A stretch of DNA of 64,000 nt from a virus (IMGVR_UViG_3300043395_000996:64001-128000); one strand, 5' to 3'. Counted from the stretch's first letter, positions 1 through 11,383 are shown. The notes: generated by a model from the sequence alone, not told the origin. A program made the numbers and translations.

Positions 1-526
1 TTGGGTCAATTTGCTGATAATAGTTTAAGAATGATAATAAAAGATTTCTTTCATTATCAAAAATGTGAACTTTTACCTCTCTACCATCTTTACTAAATTG
101 CTTTGCATTATCTTTGACTTTACGTTCTTTATCTAATACAAACACTTCATATTCTTTTGTGATAGAATCGTGTGCAGCAATAGCTGTGATTTCGTTTTGT
201 GCTTCCTTTGTATTTGGTAGACCAGATATCATTTCTACCTCAATATCAAATGTTAATACAGTATGACCTTTTGATGGTAAATCATTATCGTAAATGTCTA
301 CCAATACTCTCGTTGTTTCTGGCACATCGGATTCAAATAAATCTTCAGCTTCATCTTTTTCCCACTTTGAAATACGGGTTAATTTATCACCATACATTGA
401 ACGATGTTGTCCGTATGGGTCTTTTTTATAAGCGTATTTACGATATGGAAATGTTTGATAACCATTTGTATCATCCCATAAATGTATTAAATTCTTTGCT
501 CTCTCGTAATAGATGTTTTGATACAT
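1..526 (-). CDS. Family B DNA polymerase (T4 gp43-like), N-terminal part; runs off the left edge and is missing from the ORF track
   Basis: Manual translation from ATG at 526 (TAATG overlap with the upstream stop) gives MYQNIYYERAKNLIHLWDD...HTVLTFDIEVEMISGLP..., open to the edge. FDIEV is the ExoI motif of the PolB proofreading domain. Confidence 0.85.
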   Translation of the reverse strand, partial: MYQNIYYERAKNLIHLWDDTNGYQTFPYRKYAYKKDPYGQHRSMYGDKLTRISKWEKDEAEDLFESDVPETTRVLVDIYDNDLPSKGHTVLTFDIEVEMISGLPNTKEAQNEITAIAAHDSITKEYEVFVLDKERKVKDNAKQFSKDGREVKVHIFDNERNLLLSFLNYYQQIDP

Positions 527-1638
527 TAATATCTTAATTTTTCGTTTAAAACTTTAATCATTTTACTATCATTTAATGATAGTTCCTTTGCTCTTTCAAT
601 TGCTTTGTTTGATATATCTAAACGATGGGTTTCGTTATCTAATATTCTATCAAGCATATCAAACAAATCCTTTTTATATTTAAAGAATAATCCATTTGGG
701 TCTATCTCTTTATAACAATCTGATTCCTGAAATATCATCGGTGTTCCATTCATCATACAATCCGTTGCTGCCACACTCCATCCATAATTGGTTTGCCTCA
801 TCTGAACTCCAACCATACATTCTTGTAATCTTTTGTAATAGTCGTGTTTGGCAACTTTTGTATTATCAATCCAACTAAATTCTGGCTTACCATCCAATTG
901 TGGCACCCATACTTTAAAATCTTGCCTACGTTCCCTATACTCTTCCATCAATTTAATAAATGATGGATATCCTTTATAAGCGGCTGCTCTATGATTGAAT
1001 ACAATAACTTTTTCCTTTGATTGAGGCGATTCGATTATTTTGGAATTATCTACTCCTAAATTCCATACTACTAATATACTATTTAATTTTTGAATAAACA
1101 AATCATTAAACCACAATTTTGCTTCTTCCAAAACTCTATCTTTTTGTTCTTGTGTATTTAAAAAGCAAGTTTCCATTTGAGATACACCTAAAAGTTCTAT
1201 CGGCATCCATCTCCATTTGTTTTTTCTATCTTCGGCATTACAAGTTTTCATTTCCCACCAATGACAATATCCTATAATTTTGGTATTAAAATCATTTTTA
1301 TATCTACCAACTTGTGGCCAATCCGGCAAATGTGAATATATTACATCATAATCAATAGTTTCCAATAACCTATTCATATCAGGCGGATATGTTCTCATTT
1401 TAATCATATCACCTGAAAATGGTAGTATATGTTGTTTTACATTAATAAGATTCAATTTCTTAACCGCTTGTGGTAAAATGATATTCCAATAAAAATCACC
1501 ATGCGATTCCAATGCTTTTATATGGTTGTAAATAACATCAACAAATGAATCTTTTTCAATATTAGAAGAATTGGTAATATTTGGTATTACCAATACTTTG
1601 CGAGAATTACTATAATCTATACTATCCCAAAAATTCAT
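526..1638 (-). CDS. GT-B (family 4-like) glycosyltransferase
   Basis: 370 aa with KVIVFNHR...YKG, a ...YGWSVAATDCMMNGTP...EIDPNGLFF donor-binding segment and a C-terminal helix typical of the GT-B fold. Confidence 0.7.
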   Translation of the reverse strand: MNFWDSIDYSNSRKVLVIPNITNSSNIEKDSFVDVIYNHIKALESHGDFYWNIILPQAVKKLNLINVKQHILPFSGDMIKMRTYPPDMNRLLETIDYDVIYSHLPDWPQVGRYKNDFNTKIIGYCHWWEMKTCNAEDRKNKWRWMPIELLGVSQMETCFLNTQEQKDRVLEEAKLWFNDLFIQKLNSILVVWNLGVDNSKIIESPQSKEKVIVFNHRAAAYKGYPSFIKLMEEYRERRQDFKVWVPQLDGKPEFSWIDNTKVAKHDYYKRLQECMVGVQMRQTNYGWSVAATDCMMNGTPMIFQESDCYKEIDPNGLFFKYKKDLFDMLDRILDNETHRLDISNKAIERAKELSLNDSKMIKVLNEKLRY

Positions 1639-1639
1639 A

Positions 1640-2866
1640 TTATCTTCCTACTTCTTTTAAATAATGTTCTTTCATTTGTTCCCAAGTCATTCCAATTGCA
1701 TCTATATAAAATAGAACCTCTGGTTTGATTTTACCTTCATCAAACAATTTTTCATATCGTTTGATTGCTTTATTTTTCCACCATTTAATAGTGTATTCGT
1801 TTCCTTCTTTGAATTTATCTTTCAACACTAAATCCTTCTCTTCAATTTTTGAACAAAGGAATTCATTACCATTTTCATACATTTGTGCAAAATATACACC
1901 TCTTTGGAATCCGTGGTCATATTCATTTCCTTTAATTCCTAATTCTTTGAATATTGCCTGAATAATCTTTTGTTTGATTCCACTTACAGGTCCATTCTTT
2001 TCGTAACCCATATTAGCACCATTTCTTTCTCTCTCATCCATAATGTTTTTCTTATACCATTCTGAACGATTTTCTTTTAACCATTGATGCCACGGGTCAT
2101 AAACTTTATCATCGGGTTTTGTTGAAATCTTACCTTTGGATTCACCCAATGTTTTGAAATGTGGAATACCATTATATTGTGAATGGATACCATACAAAGA
2201 TGTTGTTCCCACTCCAACCAATGGATTGTTGTATTTCTTTTGCCAATAATCTCTAACTTCGGGTGAAGTTGCTAATGCTGCGATTAACTTACCACCTAAA
2301 AAATTATATCCAAATGGTTGTGTTGATACAATGGTAGTTGCAATTGTAGTGCAATTTAATTTACCCTTTTCAAACTTATCTTCTTTACTCCAACCAATAT
2401 ACTCATCTCTAACACCCAATGAAGTAATATCAGAACCCAAACAAATTTGCCCTAATATTTTTCCGCTTGTTCTATCCTTTACATAACATTTTACATTACG
2501 ACCTGGATTAGCCTGAAACTCCATTGTGTGAATCAATCTACGAATTTCAGTCCATCGAGTTGATTCTTTTGGGTCATCTTCTACAATTTCTACATAGGGA
2601 TTGATTGATTCGATTTCCTTAATAGTTAGCTCTTTATTTGTAATATCAGTCGGCTTCCATAACGAATCATAGTGTTGTTGAAGAACCGGCAATCGTTTCA
2701 TATTAGAAACCAAATCATCGTTCCACTCCATCCATTTTTTGTAGAGAGTTTGCTCTTCTACTGACATAGTTTTAAGATAGTCCATATTTTCAATGAACTT
2801 CTTTTTCATAACCTCATAATCAAATGTGGCCGTGTTTGTTTCTTCTCCGGTATCCCAAAATTTCAT
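1640..2866 (-). CDS. DUF4338 / Druantia DruA-like protein
   Basis: NPGRNVKCYVKD...LGQICLGS...VRDEYIGW...STQPFGYNFLGGKLIAALATSPEV...TTSLYG pattern recalled from DUF4338 proteins. Confidence 0.6.
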   Translation of the reverse strand: MKFWDTGEETNTATFDYEVMKKKFIENMDYLKTMSVEEQTLYKKWMEWNDDLVSNMKRLPVLQQHYDSLWKPTDITNKELTIKEIESINPYVEIVEDDPKESTRWTEIRRLIHTMEFQANPGRNVKCYVKDRTSGKILGQICLGSDITSLGVRDEYIGWSKEDKFEKGKLNCTTIATTIVSTQPFGYNFLGGKLIAALATSPEVRDYWQKKYNNPLVGVGTTSLYGIHSQYNGIPHFKTLGESKGKISTKPDDKVYDPWHQWLKENRSEWYKKNIMDERERNGANMGYEKNGPVSGIKQKIIQAIFKELGIKGNEYDHGFQRGVYFAQMYENGNEFLCSKIEEKDLVLKDKFKEGNEYTIKWWKNKAIKRYEKLFDEGKIKPEVLFYIDAIGMTWEQMKEHYLKEVGR

Positions 2867-2891
2867 ATTCAGATTTTATTATTGTGTTTTA

Positions 2892-2923
2892 CAAATATAC
2901 GAAAAATAATTGATATTACCAAA
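2892..2923 (-). promoter_or_regulatory. Bacteroidetes housekeeping-sigma promoter, TTTG-N20-TATATTTG, upstream of the DUF4338-GT-PolB genes
   Basis: The + strand has caaatata at 2892-2899 and caaa at 2920-2923, matching the -7 TAnnTTTG / -33 TTTG consensus. Confidence 0.8.
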
Positions 2924-3719
2924 ATTTGGTATCTATTTCCGTTTCTGGTGCAATTGTTTCCCAATGCTGAATATCCTTATTATATGCACGAGCATCTTTA
3001 GGATAAGGTCTAATCTCATGTTTCAATGATTTAAGAATTGTTTTTCTTTCTTTCTTATCTTCAGCTATAATTTGTAAGTATCTATGCTTTGGTGGTTCTT
3101 CTCTTCTCCAAAATTCTTTGTAACCTTGCTTACCAATTTCTCTACGAAGATGCTCCAAATTACCACTACCCCATTTTGTAAACACAGTCCTACTATGAAT
3201 CCATTTGTATGGGTTATTTGATAATGAAATGCCATAGTTTGGCATTAGGGCGATATCGGTATTTAGCCCCTGATAAATCCAATTAGTTGCTTGGTAAATA
3301 CCACCCAAATGTTCTTGCCCATTATCGGCGTAAGAAATAAGTGCTTTAATTGCTTTATCATTTTCTCTGAACCATTTGAATGATTGTCCCATAGCAAAAG
3401 ATTCAATGTTAGAACCATAACCATCATCACAATAAAGACGTGTTAATTCCAATACATTATCTTTTGTAAGTAATTCCGAAATAGAAGTTGCTGCTCTAGC
3501 TCCAACGGGAAACCCGTAAACCAAACATCCAATCAATTTGGTATCTTCGCCCAACGCATTGGTTTCATCCATTTTATAGAATATTCCTAATGCGTATCTA
3601 CACGCAGTCCAAGCGTGAGTATAGTGTTTCTTTACGATAATATCTTTTGCTACATCTTTACCAATTGGTGCTATAAATACTTTTGATGTATCACAATATT
3701 GTTTGCCTTCTACTTTCAT
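2916..3719 (-). CDS. Mom-like DNA-modifying GNAT acyltransferase, paralog 2
   Basis: IGCLVYGFP...VLELTRLYCDD...ALISYADNGQEHLGGIYQATNWIYQG is the Mu Mom family signature. Confidence 0.8.
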   Translation of the reverse strand: MKVEGKQYCDTSKVFIAPIGKDVAKDIIVKKHYTHAWTACRYALGIFYKMDETNALGEDTKLIGCLVYGFPVGARAATSISELLTKDNVLELTRLYCDDGYGSNIESFAMGQSFKWFRENDKAIKALISYADNGQEHLGGIYQATNWIYQGLNTDIALMPNYGISLSNNPYKWIHSRTVFTKWGSGNLEHLRREIGKQGYKEFWRREEPPKHRYLQIIAEDKKERKTILKSLKHEIRPYPKDARAYNKDIQHWETIAPETEIDTKFW

Positions 3720-3723
3720 AACC

Positions 3724-4479
3724 TTAATTTATTGGTTCTAATTTATGTATTTCTTCAATGAATTCCTCATTTGCTTTTGGATATGGCAAAGATGGATATT
3801 TTAGATTTTTTAATAATTGTTTTCTTTCTTTTCCATTAACCAAAATGTAAACGTAACGATGTTTTCTCGGTTCTTTTTTAATCCAAAATGGCGATGTAAC
3901 CATTGTCTGAATTATCTTCGGGTCATTCGTTCCGTATTTCACATATGAAGTTCTGCTATGATGCCACTCATCAATCTCACTCCACTTAAAACTCCAACTA
4001 TCATTTGGTCGGATTCGGTTACCCTGATAAATCCAATTGGTTGCTTGATATATAGTTCCTAAATGACCAGCCTTTGGGTCTGAATATGATACCAATGCTT
4101 TTATATGTGGTGCGTTTTCTCTTAACCATTGAAATGTTTTTCCAACAAACCAACTTTCAATATTACTACCATATCCATCAAACACAAATAAACGGGTTAG
4201 TTCTAACACTTCCGTTCTATCCAATGTTTCACATATAGATGCGCCGGAATGCCTACCAACCGGGTCACCATAACACGCTACACCAATAAGTTTTTCATTT
4301 ACTCCTCCAAAGAATTTGTGTTCATCGTTTGAAACATAAAATAAACCAATAGCATAGGATACTTTTGTCCATATACCACTATAATGGTTATTTACAATAA
4401 TATCCTTTGCTACGTTTTTATTTACCGACCTTACAACTAATTTTGATGTATCACAATATAACTTATTGAGTTCTTTCAT
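3724..4479 (-). CDS. Mom-like DNA-modifying GNAT acyltransferase, paralog 1
   Basis: IGVACYGDP...VLELTRLFVFD...ALVSYSDPKAGHLGTIYQATNWIYQG...KHRYVY. Confidence 0.8.
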   Translation of the reverse strand: MKELNKLYCDTSKLVVRSVNKNVAKDIIVNNHYSGIWTKVSYAIGLFYVSNDEHKFFGGVNEKLIGVACYGDPVGRHSGASICETLDRTEVLELTRLFVFDGYGSNIESWFVGKTFQWLRENAPHIKALVSYSDPKAGHLGTIYQATNWIYQGNRIRPNDSWSFKWSEIDEWHHSRTSYVKYGTNDPKIIQTMVTSPFWIKKEPRKHRYVYILVNGKERKQLLKNLKYPSLPYPKANEEFIEEIHKLEPIN

Positions 4480-4696
4480 AAGGCCACTTTATCATGTGTG
4501 TCCACGTTTGGTTTGTAACTATTTTTTTAATGTTAGCAGGAGATACCTTATAGTTTCTAGCAATAACATTGATATTTCTATGCCCTATACGATATAGTTC
4601 TCTAATTTCGGAAACCTGTTTTTCCGTTAATTTGTGCATTGGATGCGCTTCTCCTTTTAACATACGTCTAATATAACACTTTTTTTTGAGAATCAC
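4463..4696 (-). CDS. Small helix-turn-helix DNA-binding protein
   Basis: GEAHPMHKLTEKQVSEIRELY...IARNYKVSPANIKKIV resembles the HTH module found at the C-terminus of phage HNH endonucleases; no nuclease domain is present. Confidence 0.55.
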   Translation of the reverse strand: MILKKKCYIRRMLKGEAHPMHKLTEKQVSEIRELYRIGHRNINVIARNYKVSPANIKKIVTNQTWTHMIKWPYERTQ

Positions 4697-4703
4697 AAAT
4701 TTT

Positions 4704-4967
4704 TTACTTTAAATTTTCATTTATTGCGTTTACATATGCCAATTTAGATTGTAAACCGGTGAATCTTTCCACTTCTATACCATCTTTTTCCATAACTACT
4801 GTTGGAACTGAACGTATTCCGTATTTAGTGGCTTCTTCATAAGCTTCATCTACATCGTATTCTTCAAATCTTACATTTGAAAATTGGCCTTTAATTTCGT
4901 TCATCATTGGTGCCAATGCTCTACACGGTCCACACCATGCTGCGCTAAATTTTTTAACTGTTATCAT
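4704..4967 (-). CDS. trxA: Thioredoxin
   Basis: WCGPC active site and the SVPT cis-proline motif. Confidence 0.95.
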   Translation of the reverse strand: MITVKKFSAAWCGPCRALAPMMNEIKGQFSNVRFEEYDVDEAYEEATKYGIRSVPTVVMEKDGIEVERFTGLQSKLAYVNAINENLK

Positions 4968-4977
4968 AATTTTATTT

Positions 4978-6096
4978 TTAGTTGTTTTCTATTTTTGGGT
5001 ATTCTTGTGGATGATACAATGATTCCCATAATGGTATATTTGATATTCTTTGAATTGATTGAAAATAAATATCAAACATTATATCAAATTCTTTTGGAAA
5101 AATATCTTTAAAATTTGATTCATAATGTTTTGCTAAATTTAACAAAAGTTGTCTATTATGTCTATAAATATCTCTACACTTATCCCAAAGTTCATATAAT
5201 TCATCATTTGATTTAGCATTTAATTTTAATATCTCCTGATAAATCATTTTTTCTCTAACATTATCATCCGCATCATCATATGATTCATCTATTATATCGT
5301 TAAATGTTTTAAATCCCAAATTGTGTAAATTTCTTAAAACATGCTTTTGTCCTATAATAATAAATGGTCTAGATGATGCAAGAACTCTAAATGTTTTTTC
5401 AGAAATAAAAACAGAATCAATTGATAATACGTTTGATTCATATTGAGTTTCCGTTACAATATTACAAAACGCATCTCTATAAAATGGAACTAAATGTGAA
5501 TGATGGTGACAAAATGATGAATTTAAATCATCTTCTAAAAATGTATTTGAATTGTTATTATATCTAAATGAATAATATGAATTTTCTTTTATATTATTTT
5601 CTTCAAATAATTTTTCCAAATTACATCTATGCTCTTTTTTTGTTTTATTAAAGCTTATAAATTTTTTATTAAAATTTTTAGGTAATTCAAATTCTTCTAC
5701 AAAAAATTCATCAGGCGTAGCCCAATAAAAATTAAATGGATAATAATAAAATGTAAATTGTAAATATCCTAATAAATTTTCATACTCTTTAGTTTTATTT
5801 TCATAAAAAATGATAATCTTTTTAGTATTAATCTTTTTTTCTAAAAAAAATTCATGCAATTGAAATAATTGTAAAATGTGACCTGGAGTAATATATTCTC
5901 CTTTTTCCGAATATATTATTTTATAATCTCTATAATTTTCATAATAAAAATTAAGAAATTCATTTAAAACATACATTTCAGTTTGCATGAATAATGGTCT
6001 TTCAAAAAATATCGTTTTTGATTCAGGAGATATTATAATATATTTTTTAAAATCAATCCTTTCCATTAGTCTTTTCTTTGAAATCGGTGTATGCAT
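4978..6096 (-). CDS. Hypothetical protein, possibly a GT-B glycosyltransferase
   Basis: The C-terminal FCNIVTET...FISEKT...PFIIIG...GFKTF segment loosely resembles the EN..DYITEK donor motif of GT10 enzymes. Confidence 0.4.
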   Translation of the reverse strand: MHTPISKKRLMERIDFKKYIIISPESKTIFFERPLFMQTEMYVLNEFLNFYYENYRDYKIIYSEKGEYITPGHILQLFQLHEFFLEKKINTKKIIIFYENKTKEYENLLGYLQFTFYYYPFNFYWATPDEFFVEEFELPKNFNKKFISFNKTKKEHRCNLEKLFEENNIKENSYYSFRYNNNSNTFLEDDLNSSFCHHHSHLVPFYRDAFCNIVTETQYESNVLSIDSVFISEKTFRVLASSRPFIIIGQKHVLRNLHNLGFKTFNDIIDESYDDADDNVREKMIYQEILKLNAKSNDELYELWDKCRDIYRHNRQLLLNLAKHYESNFKDIFPKEFDIMFDIYFQSIQRISNIPLWESLYHPQEYPKIENN

Positions 6097-8912: not shown

Positions 8913-9926
8913 TTAAAATATATCATCCCAATTTTCACCTTCTCCCGCCTTCGAATAATCCGTAGGTCTTAATGCAAAGAAGTCGGTATGTGTTACACCC
9001 CCTGTAAGATGATAGAACCAATCCAATTCGGATGCTTTCTTTTCATCAAATTCAAAAAAGTCATCTCCACCAGCCATTGGATTGTATCCCAATTCAGCTA
9101 ATTTTTCATTAACTCTCTTTGTAATAAATTCTTTCAAATCAGCTGCTTTAAGATTTTCTAAATCTCCCATTTCAAATATCTTATCAATGAATTTATGTTC
9201 TAAATCGATAATGATTTTAGCTGCTTTGTAGATATCTTCTTTAGCTTCCTCCAATAATTCGGGAAACTCTTCACACATATGTCTGAATAATTGGCAACCC
9301 ATTTTAGAATGTAGTGATTCATCTCTTACACTCCACTTCATTTGTTGTCCAATACCTTTTAATAGATTTCTCATTTGGAATGAGTAAAGAACTGCAAATG
9401 AAGAATAAAGTGCTACACCTTCTGCAAATGCCGAAAAGATAGCGAGTGAACGAGCAACCTCAATTCTAGCTTTTGGATTTGTATCCAAATCTTTTGGAGT
9501 CCAATCAGCCGTTGTGTTTGTTAATAATTCAAATCTCTCCTTCATTGCTTCATCGTGTAAGAATCCTTCAAAGTCATCTAAACCCAATGTTTCATTTAAG
9601 TAAGAGTATGCTATGGAATGAATTGTTTCCTGCGAACCAAACGCCATAGCCATTTGTCTAATCTCATGCTTTGGAAACCATTTAGTAACCATACCGGTCC
9701 AATAATCTGAAACGGCGCATTCGGTTTGAGCAAATCCTAATAAGATGTTACCTACTAAATGTTTTTCGGATTCAGAAAGGTTTTCATTCCAATCTTTCAC
9801 ATCCATCTGCATTGGAATTTCAGTATGTAACCAAAATGCTTGCATTTGCTTTAACCATCCTTCCGTATAGTATTCTGGGTATTCAAACGGCTTAAATGGT
9901 ATCCTTTCCGTAAATAATTTGCTCAT
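8913..9926 (-). CDS. nrdB: Ribonucleotide reductase class Ia beta subunit
   Basis: FWLHTEI, ETIHSIAY (iron ligands and radical Tyr), EGVALYSSF, RDESLH and TDFFA. Confidence 0.95.
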   Translation of the reverse strand: MSKLFTERIPFKPFEYPEYYTEGWLKQMQAFWLHTEIPMQMDVKDWNENLSESEKHLVGNILLGFAQTECAVSDYWTGMVTKWFPKHEIRQMAMAFGSQETIHSIAYSYLNETLGLDDFEGFLHDEAMKERFELLTNTTADWTPKDLDTNPKARIEVARSLAIFSAFAEGVALYSSFAVLYSFQMRNLLKGIGQQMKWSVRDESLHSKMGCQLFRHMCEEFPELLEEAKEDIYKAAKIIIDLEHKFIDKIFEMGDLENLKAADLKEFITKRVNEKLAELGYNPMAGGDDFFEFDEKKASELDWFYHLTGGVTHTDFFALRPTDYSKAGEGENWDDIF

Positions 9927-10024
9927 CTTATGTTTTTGTTTTGTTAGAGTTGTAGGTATAACTATATTCTCAAAATTAAAATTTTCCCTTTTCTTTAGAA
10001 AATTTTATATGAAAATTTGTCAGT

Positions 10025-11383
10025 TTATCCCATGTTCTCAACATACTTTTTATGTAATAATTTTTTCTCTAAACTTTCTCCATTTTTAGATTCTTTTTGT
10101 GCAATTATACCATCTGCCGATGTTGCTGCGAACACATCCATTATGCCGTGGAAAGTATCAATCTTTGCCGGAAAAGTCATTCCATCAGGTCCAAATCGAT
10201 TCTTAACGATGTGAATACGACCTGTGTTTGATAACTTATCTTTTGTTTTTCTACTAACACTCATAATGAAGTCAGCGGTTTGCACTTTCTTATATGAATC
10301 TCCTACCGAATCCGCTTGGATAACTTCGTGGTCGATTGCTGAACGATTGGTTTGAGTTGCTGTCCAAATTGGAATACCCGTTTCACCACTCAATCCTCTC
10401 AATTCCTCATAGATACCACCTAATTCGGCGTATAATCCATCTCTATTACTATTACCACTTTTTAACAAATCGGCATAATCTATGATAATTAAATCGGGAC
10501 TATATCCCATTGTTTTTAATTTCTCAATATGAGCCGAAAGTGTTTTCGCAGATGCGAATTGTGGTGGATAGTACTTAATACGAACTCTACCTGGAGTGTT
10601 TTTGATTTTACGAATAATCTCTTCCTTCTTCTCTTTATGTTCTGAAGTTTGGATTCCCGTAAGAATTGTGGTATATCTCTGTCCTACATAACTTTCAGAT
10701 AATTCCAAAGTATAATGTAAAACATTCATACCTTTTTGAACTGCCGAACAAGCAATCTTTGATAAGAACCAACTCTTACCAATACCCGATGGCGCCATTA
10801 CAACACCCAATTCACCTGGTCCCAATCCACCATCCATTAATTCATCGATAACCTCCCATCCCGTTGAAACTGAATTACGTTTTACCTCCTCCATAATGGA
10901 TTCAAATTCGGTAATATAATCCAATCCCAAATCATTTTCAACACCAACTTTAGATGCAGCGGTCATTGTATCTATGATTTTATCATATTGACCTGCTTTC
11001 AGTAATTCTACTGATTTTAAAAGTGCATCTTTTACTTTTTGGTTTTTGGCAAATGTGAGATATTCTTTCTTAACGTATTGTAAATCTTCTGAACCAACTT
11101 GTAAATATACATTCTTTAATTGCTCAACAGCGGTTTGTTTGAGAATTTTATCCTCAATATCTCCAACTTTAATTTTAAACACTTCCATTGTAGGAACTGT
11201 TCTATATTCGTTGAAGTAGGACAATACTTCTCCAACAATCCATTTGTTAGCTTCGGATTCAAAGAATGTTGGTTTTGTAATTTCGTTTACCTGTTCTAAA
11301 AACTTAACATCTGTGATAAGGGAAGCAACTACTTTGGATTGATACGATTGACCATATTTGGTTAGTGTATCTACTGCTTCCAT
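10025..11383 (-). CDS. Replicative SF4 helicase (DnaB / T4 gp41-like)
   Basis: APSGIGKS Walker A, IIIDYADLL Walker B, TATQTNR and KNRFG. Confidence 0.92.
   Translation of the reverse strand: MEAVDTLTKYGQSYQSKVVASLITDVKFLEQVNEITKPTFFESEANKWIVGEVLSYFNEYRTVPTMEVFKIKVGDIEDKILKQTAVEQLKNVYLQVGSEDLQYVKKEYLTFAKNQKVKDALLKSVELLKAGQYDKIIDTMTAASKVGVENDLGLDYITEFESIMEEVKRNSVSTGWEVIDELMDGGLGPGELGVVMAPSGIGKSWFLSKIACSAVQKGMNVLHYTLELSESYVGQRYTTILTGIQTSEHKEKKEEIIRKIKNTPGRVRIKYYPPQFASAKTLSAHIEKLKTMGYSPDLIIIDYADLLKSGNSNRDGLYAELGGIYEELRGLSGETGIPIWTATQTNRSAIDHEVIQADSVGDSYKKVQTADFIMSVSRKTKDKLSNTGRIHIVKNRFGPDGMTFPAKIDTFHGIMDVFAATSADGIIAQKESKNGESLEKKLLHKKYVENMG

What the first reader, a model, noticed from the sequence alone, without database searches (positions are those of the whole stretch)
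1..4479. Candidate multi-step DNA hypermodification operon: two Mom-like GNATs, DUF4338 and a glycosyltransferase, coupled to the replicative PolB
Seen: four contiguous genes (Mom-like, Mom-like, DUF4338/DruA-like, GT-B) run straight into PolB, and the GT stop overlaps the PolB start (TAATG). Known: Mu Mom acylates adenine in DNA, and phage GT-B enzymes such as the T4 glucosyltransferases sugar-modify bases. Inferred: these enzymes act together, for example acylation creating a handle that is then glycosylated, to give a modified base not made by Mu or T4. Co-expression with the polymerase suggests modification at the replication fork. I do not know of a characterised system with this composition.
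Basis: partly seen in the sequence, partly recalled or inferred. Interest (0 to 1): 0.85.

Follow-up and report, generated by a model that had tools for sequence, protein, structure and literature searches.

The report
Clamp-tagged DNA-modification genes beside phage polymerase
An uncultured freshwater/estuarine T4-like phage carries two Mom-type adenine-modifying enzymes, a third Mom-shaped enzyme of the DruA family and a phage-only sugar transferase just upstream of its DNA polymerase. Three of the four carry the same short end-tag as the polymerase tail, so they probably ride the sliding clamp and mark new DNA, with chemistry nobody has characterised.

Summary
On the minus strand lie HTH, MomA, MomB, a DUF4338/DruA-like gene, a GT-B glycosyltransferase and PolB, tightly packed, with the TAATG stop/start overlap.

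- **DUF4338 is a third GNAT.** Its closest solved structure is Mu Mom (Z 10.0). Homologues fused to ParB-N or UDG domains point to DNA as its target.
- **Mom chemistry needs no helper.** Mu Mom alone makes its adduct from Gly-tRNA(Gly) (PMC13219725).
- **The cluster is modular.** In 32 complete related intervals, MomA is missing in 7 and the GT in 7. A variant lacking exactly the GT co-exists in one sample.
- **The trio is still linked.** DruA-like, Mom and this GT family recur together in other gene orders in phages whose PolB N-terminus is only 40-47% identical.
- **A shared end-tag.** GT (MNFWD), DruA-like (MKFWD), clamp loader gp44 (MSFF), MomB (KFW end) and PolB (KKFFSF end) are the only ORFs of 205 with a terminal F-F/W tag. 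It resembles the T4 clamp-binding epitope.

The scan found the same system on other DNA (at least 5 genomes).

The parts
4463..4696 (-). 77-aa HTH protein (GTG start) that overlaps the MomA start by 17 nt. It lies directly upstream of the first Mom gene in most related loci that reach it, and upstream of the DruA-like gene in L063.
   Evidence: Pfam HTH_7 below cut-off and PHROG HTH/HNH-associated hits; translation; synteny.
3724..4479 (-). MomA, a Mom-family GNAT. It keeps the Mu Mom residues H58/Y59, R111, S124, D149 and Y159; R151 is Lys. It has no terminal F-W tag and ends in a conserved KLEPI peptide.
   Evidence: Pfam PF25680 3e-44; alignment to PDB 8BV8 at E 1.6e-9 over chain residues 41-232; family alignment A3; dN/dS 0.075.
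2916..3719 (-). MomB, a second Mom paralogue about 47% identical to MomA. It keeps the same catalytic residues, but the R151 position is Gly. It differs from MomA in the region that aligns to Mu's DNA-binding insertion.
   Evidence: Pfam PF25680 3.9e-42; 8BV8 alignment; A3; present in 31 of 32 complete related intervals.
2919..2930 (-). C-terminal T-K-F-W tag of MomB, conserved as (K/N)-F-W in MomB-type orthologues.
   Evidence: Sequence; orthologue termini; 35 of 72 unique Mom proteins carry a C-terminal F-F/W, against 14 of 952 other ORFs.
1640..2866 (-). DUF4338/DruA-like protein: a GNAT core (about residues 83-338) with a helical insertion, an N-terminal helical region and a floppy N-terminal tail.
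   Evidence: PF14236 1.1e-21; PADLOC DruA 1.2e-21; AF2 model with pLDDT 90.2; best structural match Mu Mom 8BV8 at Z 10.0, rmsd 3.5 A, 165 residues, with the other listed rows GNAT-type acyltransferases or close structural kin at Z 8.8 or below; fusions to ParB_N (7 of 20), UDG (1) and DUF3102 (1).
2852..2866 (-). N-terminal M-K-F-W-D tag of the DruA-like protein. Model residues 1-11 have pLDDT below 50, as expected for a flexible tail.
   Evidence: 68 of 113 unique homologues have F-F/W within the first 10 residues.
526..1638 (-). GT-B glycosyltransferase of GT4 type, from a virus-only branch. No homologue was found in 50,697 isolate phage records.
   Evidence: AF2 model with pLDDT 82.9; Foldseek matches to MshA, BshA, PimA and PglA at E 1e-11 to 1e-9 and TM up to 0.71; the nearest ESM Atlas clusters are all viral; no tblastn match in isolate phages; 637 metagenomic homologues.
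1624..1638 (-). N-terminal M-N-F-W-D tag of the GT. F3 and W4 are invariant in all 19 aligned sequences, including a paralogue only 30% identical.
   Evidence: 35 of 42 unique GTs carry it; model residues 1-5 have pLDDT below 50.
2..526 (-). N-terminal 175 aa of the replicative family-B DNA polymerase. The gene runs on outside the window (853 aa in all) and ends in K-K-F-F-S-F.
   Evidence: Pfam DNA_pol_B_exo1 and PHROG DNA polymerase; full ORF and C-terminus in the whole genome.

Best explanation
This is a modular DNA-modification (anti-restriction) island built into the replisome gene cluster of a T4-like phage.

- **MomA and MomB.** They are active Mom-type GNATs that most likely transfer an amino acid from charged tRNA to N6 of adenine in double-stranded phage DNA, as Mu Mom does with glycine. 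The two paralogues probably differ in DNA sequence context or in donor.
- **The DUF4338/DruA-like protein.** It is a third, Mom-shaped GNAT that also acts on DNA. Its donor is unknown (acyl-CoA or aminoacyl-tRNA).
- **The GT4-like glycosyltransferase.** It is an accessory, exchangeable member. It most likely adds a sugar to DNA, probably to one of the GNAT products, because the phage shows no pathway for hydroxymethyl-pyrimidines.
- **The tag.** MomB, the DruA-like protein and the GT carry a terminal Phe-Phe/Trp (mostly + acidic) peptide like the polymerase tail and the clamp loader N-terminus. The peptide tethers them to the gp45 sliding clamp, so that newly made DNA is modified behind the fork.

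**Shown here:** gene identities, folds, conserved catalytic residues, purifying selection, synteny patterns and motif enrichment.

**Inferred:** DNA as the target of the DruA-like protein and the GT, clamp binding, the donors and the products.
For: 1. **Mom membership and residues.** Both Moms score far above the Pfam cut-off. Alignment to 8BV8 shows H58/Y59, R111, S124, D149 and Y159 kept in both; these residues are needed for Mu Mom activity (PMC13219725).
2. **DruA-like fold and target.** The best structural match is Mu Mom (Z 10.0); the other listed rows are GNAT-type acyltransferases or close structural kin. DUF4338 has already been called a GNAT (PMC10853773). Among 20 long homologues, 7 are fused to ParB_N and 1 to UDG.
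3. **Position in the replisome cluster.** In cyanophages the DruA-like gene lies between gp44 and gp62. In more distant relatives it lies between gp45 and gp44. Here it lies upstream of PolB.
4. **Recurrence in other orders.** Where PolB-N is only 40-47% identical: L117 has DruA-Mom-GT, L120 has DruA-Mom-x-GT..PolB, and L128 has Mom-DruA-x-GT-Mom-PolB.
5. **Tag in this genome.** Of 205 ORFs, N-terminal M-x-F-F/W occurs only in the GT, the DruA-like protein and gp44. A C-terminal F-F/W occurs only in PolB and MomB.
6. **Tag across 160 loci (unique sequences).** PolB C-terminus 42/43, Mom C-terminus 35/72, DruA-like N-terminus 68/113, GT N-terminus 35/42, gp44 N-terminus 34/55. gp45, gp62 and dUTPase score 0. 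Other ORFs score 11/952 (N) and 14/952 (C), and several of those are unknown genes inserted in the same clusters.
7. **Precedent.** The ligands of T4 gp45 are the clamp loader and the interchangeable hydrophobic-acidic C-termini of gp43, gp55 and gp33 (PMC2988020). T4 ligase uses an LDFLF motif (PMC6212786).
8. **Flexible tails.** The tagged N-terminal tails of the GT and the DruA-like protein are low-confidence in the models.
9. **No other modification toolkit seen.** The genome has one bona fide ThyA, no ThyX and no DNA methyltransferase of PF01555, PF02086 or PF00145.
10. **Constraint.** dN/dS is 0.06-0.08 for all four genes.
Against: - No chemistry or binding was tested.
- MomA has no tag.
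- The essential Mu residue R151 is Lys in MomA and Gly in MomB.
- A profile-profile comparison of DUF4338 and Mom is not significant, so the kinship rests on fold.
- The GT fold matches only generic GT4 enzymes that act on small molecules, lipids or sugars; no DNA glycosyltransferase is among the top 50.
- The phage has several other GTs, so a GT gene here is not unusual in itself.
- The GT and MomA come and go among close relatives. That argues against an obligate joint pathway and is equally compatible with the GT being an unrelated cassette in a hot-spot.
- The loci were fetched with the DruA-like protein as bait, so co-occurrence counts are biased.
- The cyanophage DruA-like proteins lack the tag.
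Confidence: 0.55

Rival explanations
1. One reading: an obligate multi-step pathway. A Mom or DruA-like enzyme acylates adenine, and the GT then glycosylates that handle, giving one compound hypermodified base.
For: DruA-like, Mom and this GT family recur together in rearranged orders in distant phages. In every GT-positive complete interval, MomB and the DruA-like gene are also present. The genome shows no hydroxymethyl-pyrimidine route that could give the GT another DNA handle. The carbamoylmethyl group made by Mom ends in a carboxamide, chemically like the Asn side chain that cytoplasmic GT-B N-glycosyltransferases use; this last point is my own knowledge and an inference.
Against: Mu Mom completes its product alone (PMC13219725). 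The GT is absent in 7 of 32 complete intervals in which the Moms and the DruA-like gene stay under the same constraint. MomA is absent in 7 of 32, independently of the GT. A variant lacking exactly the GT co-exists in one sample. In other relatives the GT is replaced by a paralogue only 29-31% identical, at a different position.
Confidence: 0.22
2. The GT does not act on DNA. It is one of the phage's many glycosyltransferases (for virion proteins, host envelope or a metabolite) and merely sits in a variable hot-spot next to PolB.
For: The fold matches are GT4 enzymes that act on small molecules, lipids and glycans. At least two more GT genes lie within 10 kb downstream. The GT shows presence/absence polymorphism and cassette-like replacement.
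Against: Of the GTs in this genome, only this one carries the N-terminal F-W-acidic tag shared with the DruA-like protein, gp44, MomB and PolB. The tag is invariant even in the paralogue only 30% identical. In the distant loci searched, the family was detected only in loci that also hold Mom and DruA-like genes, and its nearest Atlas clusters are virus-only.
Confidence: 0.3
3. The DruA-like GNAT acetylates a protein of the replisome, or a host protein, rather than a DNA base. Its position among clamp and clamp-loader genes reflects that target.
For: Most GNATs acylate proteins or small molecules, and the list of structural neighbours is dominated by them. A Q-x-x-G motif stands at the beta4-alpha3 junction, where GNATs bind CoA pyrophosphate (read from alignment A2 and the model; an inference). 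It lies between the clamp (gp45) and clamp-loader (gp44) genes, or between gp44 and gp62.
Against: The best structural match is the DNA-modifying Mom, and the helical insertion lies at the same place in the fold (the position of the insertion is an inference). The fusions to ParB_N and UDG involve DNA-handling domains. It co-occurs with Mom and with nuclease-like inserts, as is typical of modification/restriction conflict loci.
Confidence: 0.15
4. The terminal F-F/W peptide is not a clamp tag. It docks the proteins to another shared hub (for example SSB or the polymerase), or the N-terminal version reflects an mRNA-level translational operator.
For: Binding was not tested. The N-terminal codons are U-rich (TTT TGG GA), and T4 RegA is known to bind A/U-rich sites at start codons of replication genes (my own knowledge). 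T4 clamp epitopes are C-terminal or internal, not N-terminal (PMC2988020, PMC6212786).
Against: The same peptide occurs at C-termini, where no start-codon operator can act (MomB, PolB; and in L128 both Moms and PolB). The amino acids are kept while codons vary: TTT/TTC, and GAT/GAA/GAC/GAG. No regA homologue was found by tblastn. 42 of 43 PolB tails carry it, and the PolB tail is the canonical clamp ligand in T4 and RB69. The clamp loader also carries it.
Confidence: 0.15

Closest known systems
Bacteriophage Mu Mom (PF25680; PDB 8BV8; Silva et al., Nat Commun 2026, PMC13219725)
   Same: MomA and MomB are clear family members with the catalytic residues kept. The DruA-like protein has Mom as its closest solved structure. 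The likely role is the same: N6-adenine hypermodification of double-stranded phage DNA as protection from restriction.
   Different: Mu has one Mom, regulated by Com and late promoters, with no partner enzymes. Here there are two paralogues (three in some relatives) plus a DruA-like GNAT and a GT, inside the replisome cluster of a lytic T4-like phage. All 314 isolate-phage records with a Mom hit have a single Mom locus. R151 is not kept. The donor and the product are unknown.
DruA (DUF4338) of type I Druantia anti-phage defence
   Same: The same Pfam and PADLOC family, and the same GNAT fold as noted by Aravind's group (PMC10853773). DruA-like proteins in Synechococcus phages have been noted before (Phold preprint).
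   Different: No other Druantia component is present: no DruE-type DUF1998/MZB domain anywhere in the genome, and the flanking genes are Mom, GT and PolB. It is encoded by a phage, embedded in replication genes, and carries a terminal tag.
T4/RB69 gp45 sliding-clamp clients (gp43, gp55 and gp33 C-termini; clamp loader; DNA ligase LDFLF loop)
   Same: A short hydrophobic-acidic peptide at a flexible chain end, shared by the polymerase tail and by other proteins that must work on DNA (PMC2988020, PMC6212786).
   Different: Here the carriers are DNA-modifying enzymes, and the tag is often N-terminal. I found no described case of Mom, DruA-like or glycosyltransferase enzymes as clamp clients. Binding is untested.
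T4 alpha- and beta-glucosyltransferases with dCMP hydroxymethylase (gene 42), which lie near gene 43 in T4 (gene order from my own knowledge)
   Same: A GT-B-fold enzyme encoded next to the phage polymerase, in a phage that modifies its DNA.
   Different: There is no sequence or top-50 fold match to the T4 enzymes. There is no hydroxymethylase, only a bona fide thymidylate synthase. The acceptor would therefore have to be something other than 5-hmC.
Mom domains fused to REase-fold nucleases in jumbo phages (Iyer et al., Viruses 2021, PMC7824862)
   Same: A Mom-type modification paired with a phage-encoded nuclease. Some relatives here carry a GmrSD-N/HNH-like gene or an AIPR-like gene inserted in the same cluster.
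   Different: They are separate genes rather than fusions, and the window's own phage lacks the nuclease insert.

Membership tests
Mom family (PF25680) | Match to the family profile above the curated cut-off | tested here: met
   MomA 151.6 bits and MomB 144.6 bits against a cut-off of 27.1; PHROG 1384 at 1e-53 and 2e-44.
Mom family (PF25680) | Residues needed for Mu Mom activity: H58, Y59, R111, S124, D149, R151, Y159 | tested here: inconclusive
   H-Y, R111 (ELTRL), S124 (NIES), D149 and Y159 are kept in both paralogues. R151 is Lys in MomA and Gly in MomB (read against PMC13219725). R151 also varies within the family alignment, so it may not define the family.
Mom family (PF25680) | Gly-tRNA(Gly)-dependent formation of N6-carbamoylmethyl-adenine in dsDNA | not testable with these tools
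   This is biochemistry only. The phage encodes 14 tRNAs but no tRNA-Gly, so it would rely on host tRNA.
DruA / DUF4338 (PF14236) | Match to the family profile above the cut-off | tested here: met
   77.7 bits against 27; PADLOC DruA at 1.2e-21.
Type I Druantia system | DruA encoded together with DruB-DruE (a large DUF1998 helicase) | tested here: not met
   The neighbours are Mom, GT and PolB. No DUF1998/MZB domain was found in the 95%-complete genome.
GNAT superfamily (for the DruA-like protein) | GNAT core fold | tested here: met
   Model pLDDT 90.2. The top 50 structural matches are GNAT-type acyltransferases or close structural kin, led by Mu Mom at Z 10.0, rmsd 3.5 A and 165 residues. 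Foldseek hits are p300/CBP HAT and GNATs. A sequence-profile comparison with Mom is not significant.
GT-B glycosyltransferases, GT4-like | Two-Rossmann GT-B fold resembling GT4 enzymes | tested here: met
   Foldseek matches MshA, BshA, PimA and PglA at E 7e-12 to 1e-9 and TM up to 0.71. The Pfam GT1/GT4 hits are all below the gathering cut-offs.
T4-type DNA glucosyltransferases (alpha-GT, beta-GT) | Homology to the T4 enzymes | tested here: inconclusive
   There is no Pfam hit other than GT1/GT4, and neither T4 enzyme is among the top 50 fold matches. This does not exclude a distant relationship.
T4-type DNA glucosyltransferases (alpha-GT, beta-GT) | A 5-hydroxymethyl-pyrimidine acceptor made by a phage ThyA-like hydroxymethylase | tested here: not met
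   The single ThyA-family gene passes NCBIfam thymidylate-synthase equivalog cut-offs (348.7 bits against 325). No ThyX was found.
gp45 sliding-clamp clients | A short hydrophobic(-acidic) peptide at a flexible terminus, shared with the polymerase tail | tested here: met
   the tails have low confidence in the models.
gp45 sliding-clamp clients | Physical binding to the clamp | not testable with these tools
The gp45 gene was identified (G000:C1:60006-60719) and alignment A4 was prepared.

The most novel reading that the evidence does not exclude
The Mom paralogues, the DruA-like GNAT and the GT are all clients of the phage sliding clamp. Together they write a compound adenine hypermodification on nascent DNA, in which an aminoacyl- or acyl-derived group is then glycosylated. 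By extension, the DruA family as a whole, including DruA of type I Druantia, would be Mom-like enzymes that acylate DNA bases.
Probability: 0.2. Interest if true: 0.9.

Novelty: new variant of a known kind. Interest (0 to 1): 0.72.

Why it matters
- **New chemistry.** Mom is the only characterised enzyme that aminoacylates DNA, and its mechanism was solved only in 2026. A widespread clade of aquatic T4-like phages keeps two or three Moms, a Mom-shaped DruA-family enzyme and a dedicated glycosyltransferase. This points to DNA-base chemistry that has not been described.
- **A lead on DruA.** It gives a concrete, testable hypothesis for the unknown function of DruA, a component of a bacterial defence system.
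- **Clamp coupling.** If the terminal tag binds the sliding clamp, this would be a case of DNA-modifying enzymes carried on the replication tool-belt. That would explain how a lytic phage can modify its whole genome as it is copied.
- **A natural experiment.** GT-positive and GT-negative variants co-exist in single samples and can be compared directly.
- **Abundance.** The phage clade is common: its sequence is held in freshwater, estuary, reservoir and farm metagenomes, and 11 studies hold the stretch or part of it.

Tried and rejected
I used the search for related loci with a distant homologue instead.
- **hhalign of DUF4338 against Mom profiles** was not significant (probability 1.2%).
- **Sigma-70 promoter and terminator scan** was uninformative: 48 sites against 44 expected, and no minus-strand terminator between the genes.
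- **Megablast of the region against isolate phages** gave no match. tblastn of the GT against isolate phages also gave none.
- **Sequence search of the GT and the DruA-like protein against PDB** gave nothing useful.
- **RNA-library contigs** cover parts of PolB, GT, DruA-like, MomB and MomA. Being contigs, in libraries that may hold DNA, they do not show transcription.
- **No raw long-read run** was available, so no modification signal could be looked for.
- **A gp55 search** with pelagiphage gp55 found nothing in the genome. PHROG scans of other ORFs with aromatic C-termini were uninformative. The phage's own gp55/gp33 clamp epitopes could therefore not be compared.
- **ESM Atlas on the 584-aa insert of the GT2-type loci** gave only a weak AIPR/DUF262 lead, with scores below 0.9.
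- **An RNA-level (RegA-type) reading of the N-terminal tag** was considered and is judged unlikely.
- **Idea dropped:** that the TAATG overlap by itself signals special coupling to PolB. Such overlaps are general in this genome.

Full report
**Observation**

The window is bases 64001-128000 of a 179,990-bp IMG/VR virus record estimated 95% complete. In my ORF call, 202 of 205 ORFs lie on one strand.

On the minus strand of positions 1-4700 lie, in order of transcription:
- a 77-aa HTH gene (4696..4463);
- MomA (4479..3724);
- MomB (3719..2916);
- a DUF4338/DruA-like gene (2866..1640);
- a GT-B glycosyltransferase (1638..526);
- the start of a family-B DNA polymerase (526..2).

Pfam, PHROG and PADLOC confirm the names. 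The GT stop and the PolB start overlap as TAATG. The DruA-like stop and the GT start are one base apart. Upstream lie thioredoxin, an unknown 372-aa ORF, PhoH and NrdA.

Against orthologues in related contigs, median dN/dS is 0.075 for MomA, 0.064 for MomB, 0.078 for the DruA-like gene and 0.058 for the GT. PolB-N is 0.080 and NrdA 0.048. Tight packing and overlapping stop/start codons are general in this genome, so they say little on their own.

**The Mom paralogues**

Mu Mom is now known to be a GNAT that takes glycine from Gly-tRNA(Gly) and puts it on N6 of adenine in dsDNA. The adduct then rearranges on the base to N6-carbamoylmethyl-adenine. One enzyme suffices. It works as a dimer, and H58, Y59, R111, S124, D149, R151 and Y159 matter for activity (PMC13219725).

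MomA aligns to the Mu structure 8BV8 over chain residues 41-232 (E 1.6e-9), and MomB over 36-161. The chain numbering is offset by 9 from the paper's numbering; the crystal's S124A shows as Ala at chain position 115. On that basis both paralogues keep H-Y, R111, S124, D149 and Y159, while R151 is Lys in MomA and Gly in MomB. I read both as active enzymes.

The two are about 47% identical to each other. That is about as far apart as either is from the nearest isolate homologue, in Polaribacter phage P12002L, at 45% and 42%. They differ most in the stretch that aligns to Mu's DNA-binding insertion. This suggests different DNA contexts or donors, which is an inference.

All 314 and 267 isolate-phage records with a hit to MomA or MomB have a single Mom locus. 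A tandem pair is therefore unusual among cultured phages.

**The DruA-like protein**

- An AlphaFold2 model built on 38 homologues has pLDDT 90.2.
- A search of 48,161 PDB representatives that does not depend on Foldseek puts Mu Mom first: 8BV8, Z 10.0, rmsd 3.5 A, 165 aligned residues, model residues 83-338. The other listed rows are GNAT-type acyltransferases or close structural kin at Z 8.8 or below.
- Foldseek gives only weak hits, but they are to p300/CBP HAT domains and GNATs.
- A profile-profile comparison with Mom is not significant, so the link is by fold, not by sequence.
- That DUF4338 is a GNAT has been stated before (PMC10853773). DruA-like proteins in Synechococcus phages have been noted too, and one deposited cyanophage record even labels its homologue "methylcarbamoylase mom".
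- The family is large: 1,115 representatives at E of 1e-3 or better.
- Of 20 longer homologues, 7 carry an N-terminal ParB_N domain, one a UDG domain and one DUF3102. These DNA-handling partners point to DNA as the target.
- The genome has no DruE-type domain, so this is not a Druantia system.

**The glycosyltransferase**

The model (pLDDT 82.9) is a GT-B fold closest to GT4 enzymes such as MshA, BshA, PimA and PglA. No DNA glycosyltransferase is among the top 50 matches.

It has 637 metagenomic homologues. Its nearest ESM Atlas clusters are all viral. It has no homologue in 50,697 isolate phage records.

It has one bona fide thymidylate synthase, no ThyX, and no methyltransferase of three major families. 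There is thus no hydroxymethyl-pyrimidine for a T4-style sugar step. The Mom, DruA-like and GT genes are the only recognisable DNA-modification toolkit.

**Conservation of the linkage**

With the DruA-like protein as bait, IMG/VR gave 80 loci at 66-100% identity. Of 32 intervals that run from the HTH gene to PolB:
- MomB is present in 31, MomA in 25, a GT in 25, and all four genes in 19.
- MomA and the GT are lost independently: 19 intervals have both, 6 have MomA without a GT, 6 have a GT without MomA, and 1 has neither.
- In 7 intervals the GT is a paralogue only 29-31% identical: upstream of the DruA-like gene, behind a 584-aa unknown gene, in 6 of them, and just downstream of it in one (L033).
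- In five intervals, a 513-aa gene with GmrSD-N/DUF262 and HNH hits is inserted between the DruA-like gene and the GT.

In one DNA run, a contig joins position 526 directly to 1640. A variant lacking exactly the GT therefore co-exists with the GT-bearing form.

In near-complete relatives, the Mom pair can lie 10-20 kb from the DruA-like/GT pair (G001), or there can be three Moms (G002). Complete pelagiphage genomes have the DruA-like gene but no Mom. In cyanophages it lies between the clamp-loader genes gp44 and gp62.

None of this fits an obligate four-step pathway.

A second scan, with a homologue only 43% identical, sampled more distant phages. There, with PolB-N at 40-47%, the DruA-like protein at 44-59% and the GT at 30-35% identity to the window:
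- L117/L118 read DruA-Mom-GT;
- L120 reads DruA-Mom-x-GT...PolB;
- L128 reads Mom-DruA-x-GT-Mom-PolB;
- L124 and its kin read Mom...gp45-DruA-gp44...Mom.

Recurrence in shuffled orders over this distance is good evidence that the three families work in the same process, although not that each needs the others. Bait bias applies, and 56 of these 80 loci show the DruA-like gene alone within the DNA held.

**The terminal tag**

An earlier first-stage note (e1-5833886) gave the lead, and I tested it.

Within this genome's 205 ORFs:
- an N-terminal M-x-F-F/W occurs only in the GT (MNFWD), the DruA-like protein (MKFWD) and the clamp loader gp44 (MSFF);
- a C-terminal F-F/W occurs only in PolB (...KKFFSF) and MomB (...TKFW);
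- all five genes lie within 10 kb.

Over 160 loci, counting unique sequences:

| Family | End scored | With F-F/W | Total |
|---|---|---|---|
| PolB | C-terminus | 42 | 43 |
| Mom | C-terminus | 35 | 72 |
| DruA-like | N-terminus | 68 | 113 |
| GT | N-terminus | 35 | 42 |
| gp44 | N-terminus | 34 | 55 |
| gp45, gp62, dUTPase | either | 0 | 51, 42, 20 |
| Other ORFs | N-terminus | 11 | 952 |
| Other ORFs | C-terminus | 14 | 952 |

Several of the "other" carriers are unknown genes inserted in the same clusters.

In L128 the tag sits on both Moms (C-terminal KFFD), on the GT (N-terminal MSKFFD) and on PolB (NKFFEF). F3 and W4 of the GT are invariant even in the paralogue only 30% identical. The tagged tails are low-confidence, that is flexible, in both models.

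In T4, the ligands of the gp45 clamp are the clamp loader and the interchangeable hydrophobic-acidic C-termini of gp43, gp55 and gp33 (PMC2988020). T4 ligase uses an LDFLF loop (PMC6212786).

The simplest reading is that the tag docks these enzymes on the clamp. The clamp gene lies about 2 kb beyond the end of PolB in this phage, and directly upstream of the DruA-like gene in relatives.

An mRNA-operator reading of the N-terminal version is unlikely. The tag also occurs at C-termini, the codons vary while the residues are kept, and no regA homologue was found.

**Verdict**

The best reading is a modular, replisome-embedded DNA-modification island. It holds two active Mom-type adenine modifiers, a third Mom-shaped GNAT that acts on DNA, and an accessory glycosyltransferase that is probably DNA-directed. 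Most of these proteins are tethered to the sliding clamp by a shared end-tag (confidence 0.55).

- The GT may be unrelated to DNA (0.30).
- The composition has no characterised counterpart in the literature searched.
- The same scan has reported this system, and the same tag, in at least five other genomes. Those are unchecked AI notes and are not counted as evidence here.

Noticed in passing
L010:9329-10870 (also L041, L044-L046): In some close relatives, a 513-aa gene is inserted between the DruA-like gene and the GT. It has a GmrSD-N/DUF262 N-terminal part and an HNH/endonuclease VII-like C-terminal part; PADLOC gives an NsnA hit. This is a phage-borne nuclease of type IV restriction type inside the modification cluster.
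   Followed up: partly
L006:5123-6877 (also L014, L015, L037, L038, L059): A 584-aa gene with no Pfam or PHROG family always accompanies the divergent GT paralogue. The ESM Atlas gives only a weak AIPR/DUF262 lead, with scores of 0.88 or below.
   Followed up: partly
window 4978-6096: The 372-aa ORF between PhoH and thioredoxin has no family. It is a presence/absence cassette: contigs in two runs join 4967 to 6090, and many related loci lack it.
   Followed up: partly
G000:C1:512-6173 (outside the window): The phage encodes 14 tRNAs (none for Gly) and a tmRNA with the tag peptide AVELSTMTFEDAMAFVGADYAVAA, according to ARAGORN.
   Followed up: no
L093:10411-11643 and 9514-10374 (G000:C1:55513-57642): A radical SAM/SPASM protein and a PD-(D/E)XK nuclease lie just downstream of the clamp-loader genes. 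Two further GT1/GT4-type glycosyltransferases follow, one of which hits the Pfam 'GT4-conflict' family.
   Followed up: no
L004:12906-13664 and orthologues; own genome G000:C1:60763-61548: The unknown protein of about 250-260 aa encoded between PolB and gp45 begins MKGLKFWK in several relatives. It carries the same F-W tag near its N-terminus.
   Followed up: no
window 3724-4479 and orthologues: MomA-type proteins lack the F-W tag but share a conserved C-terminal peptide, (E)EIHKLEPI. Its role is unknown.
   Followed up: no
L070:6651-7262 and L066, L067, L069, L077, L078, L082: A third, shorter Mom paralogue (about 203 aa; Pfam Mom 4.7e-34) lies between PolB and the clamp gene in a sister clade. 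It ends in QWFG.
   Followed up: partly
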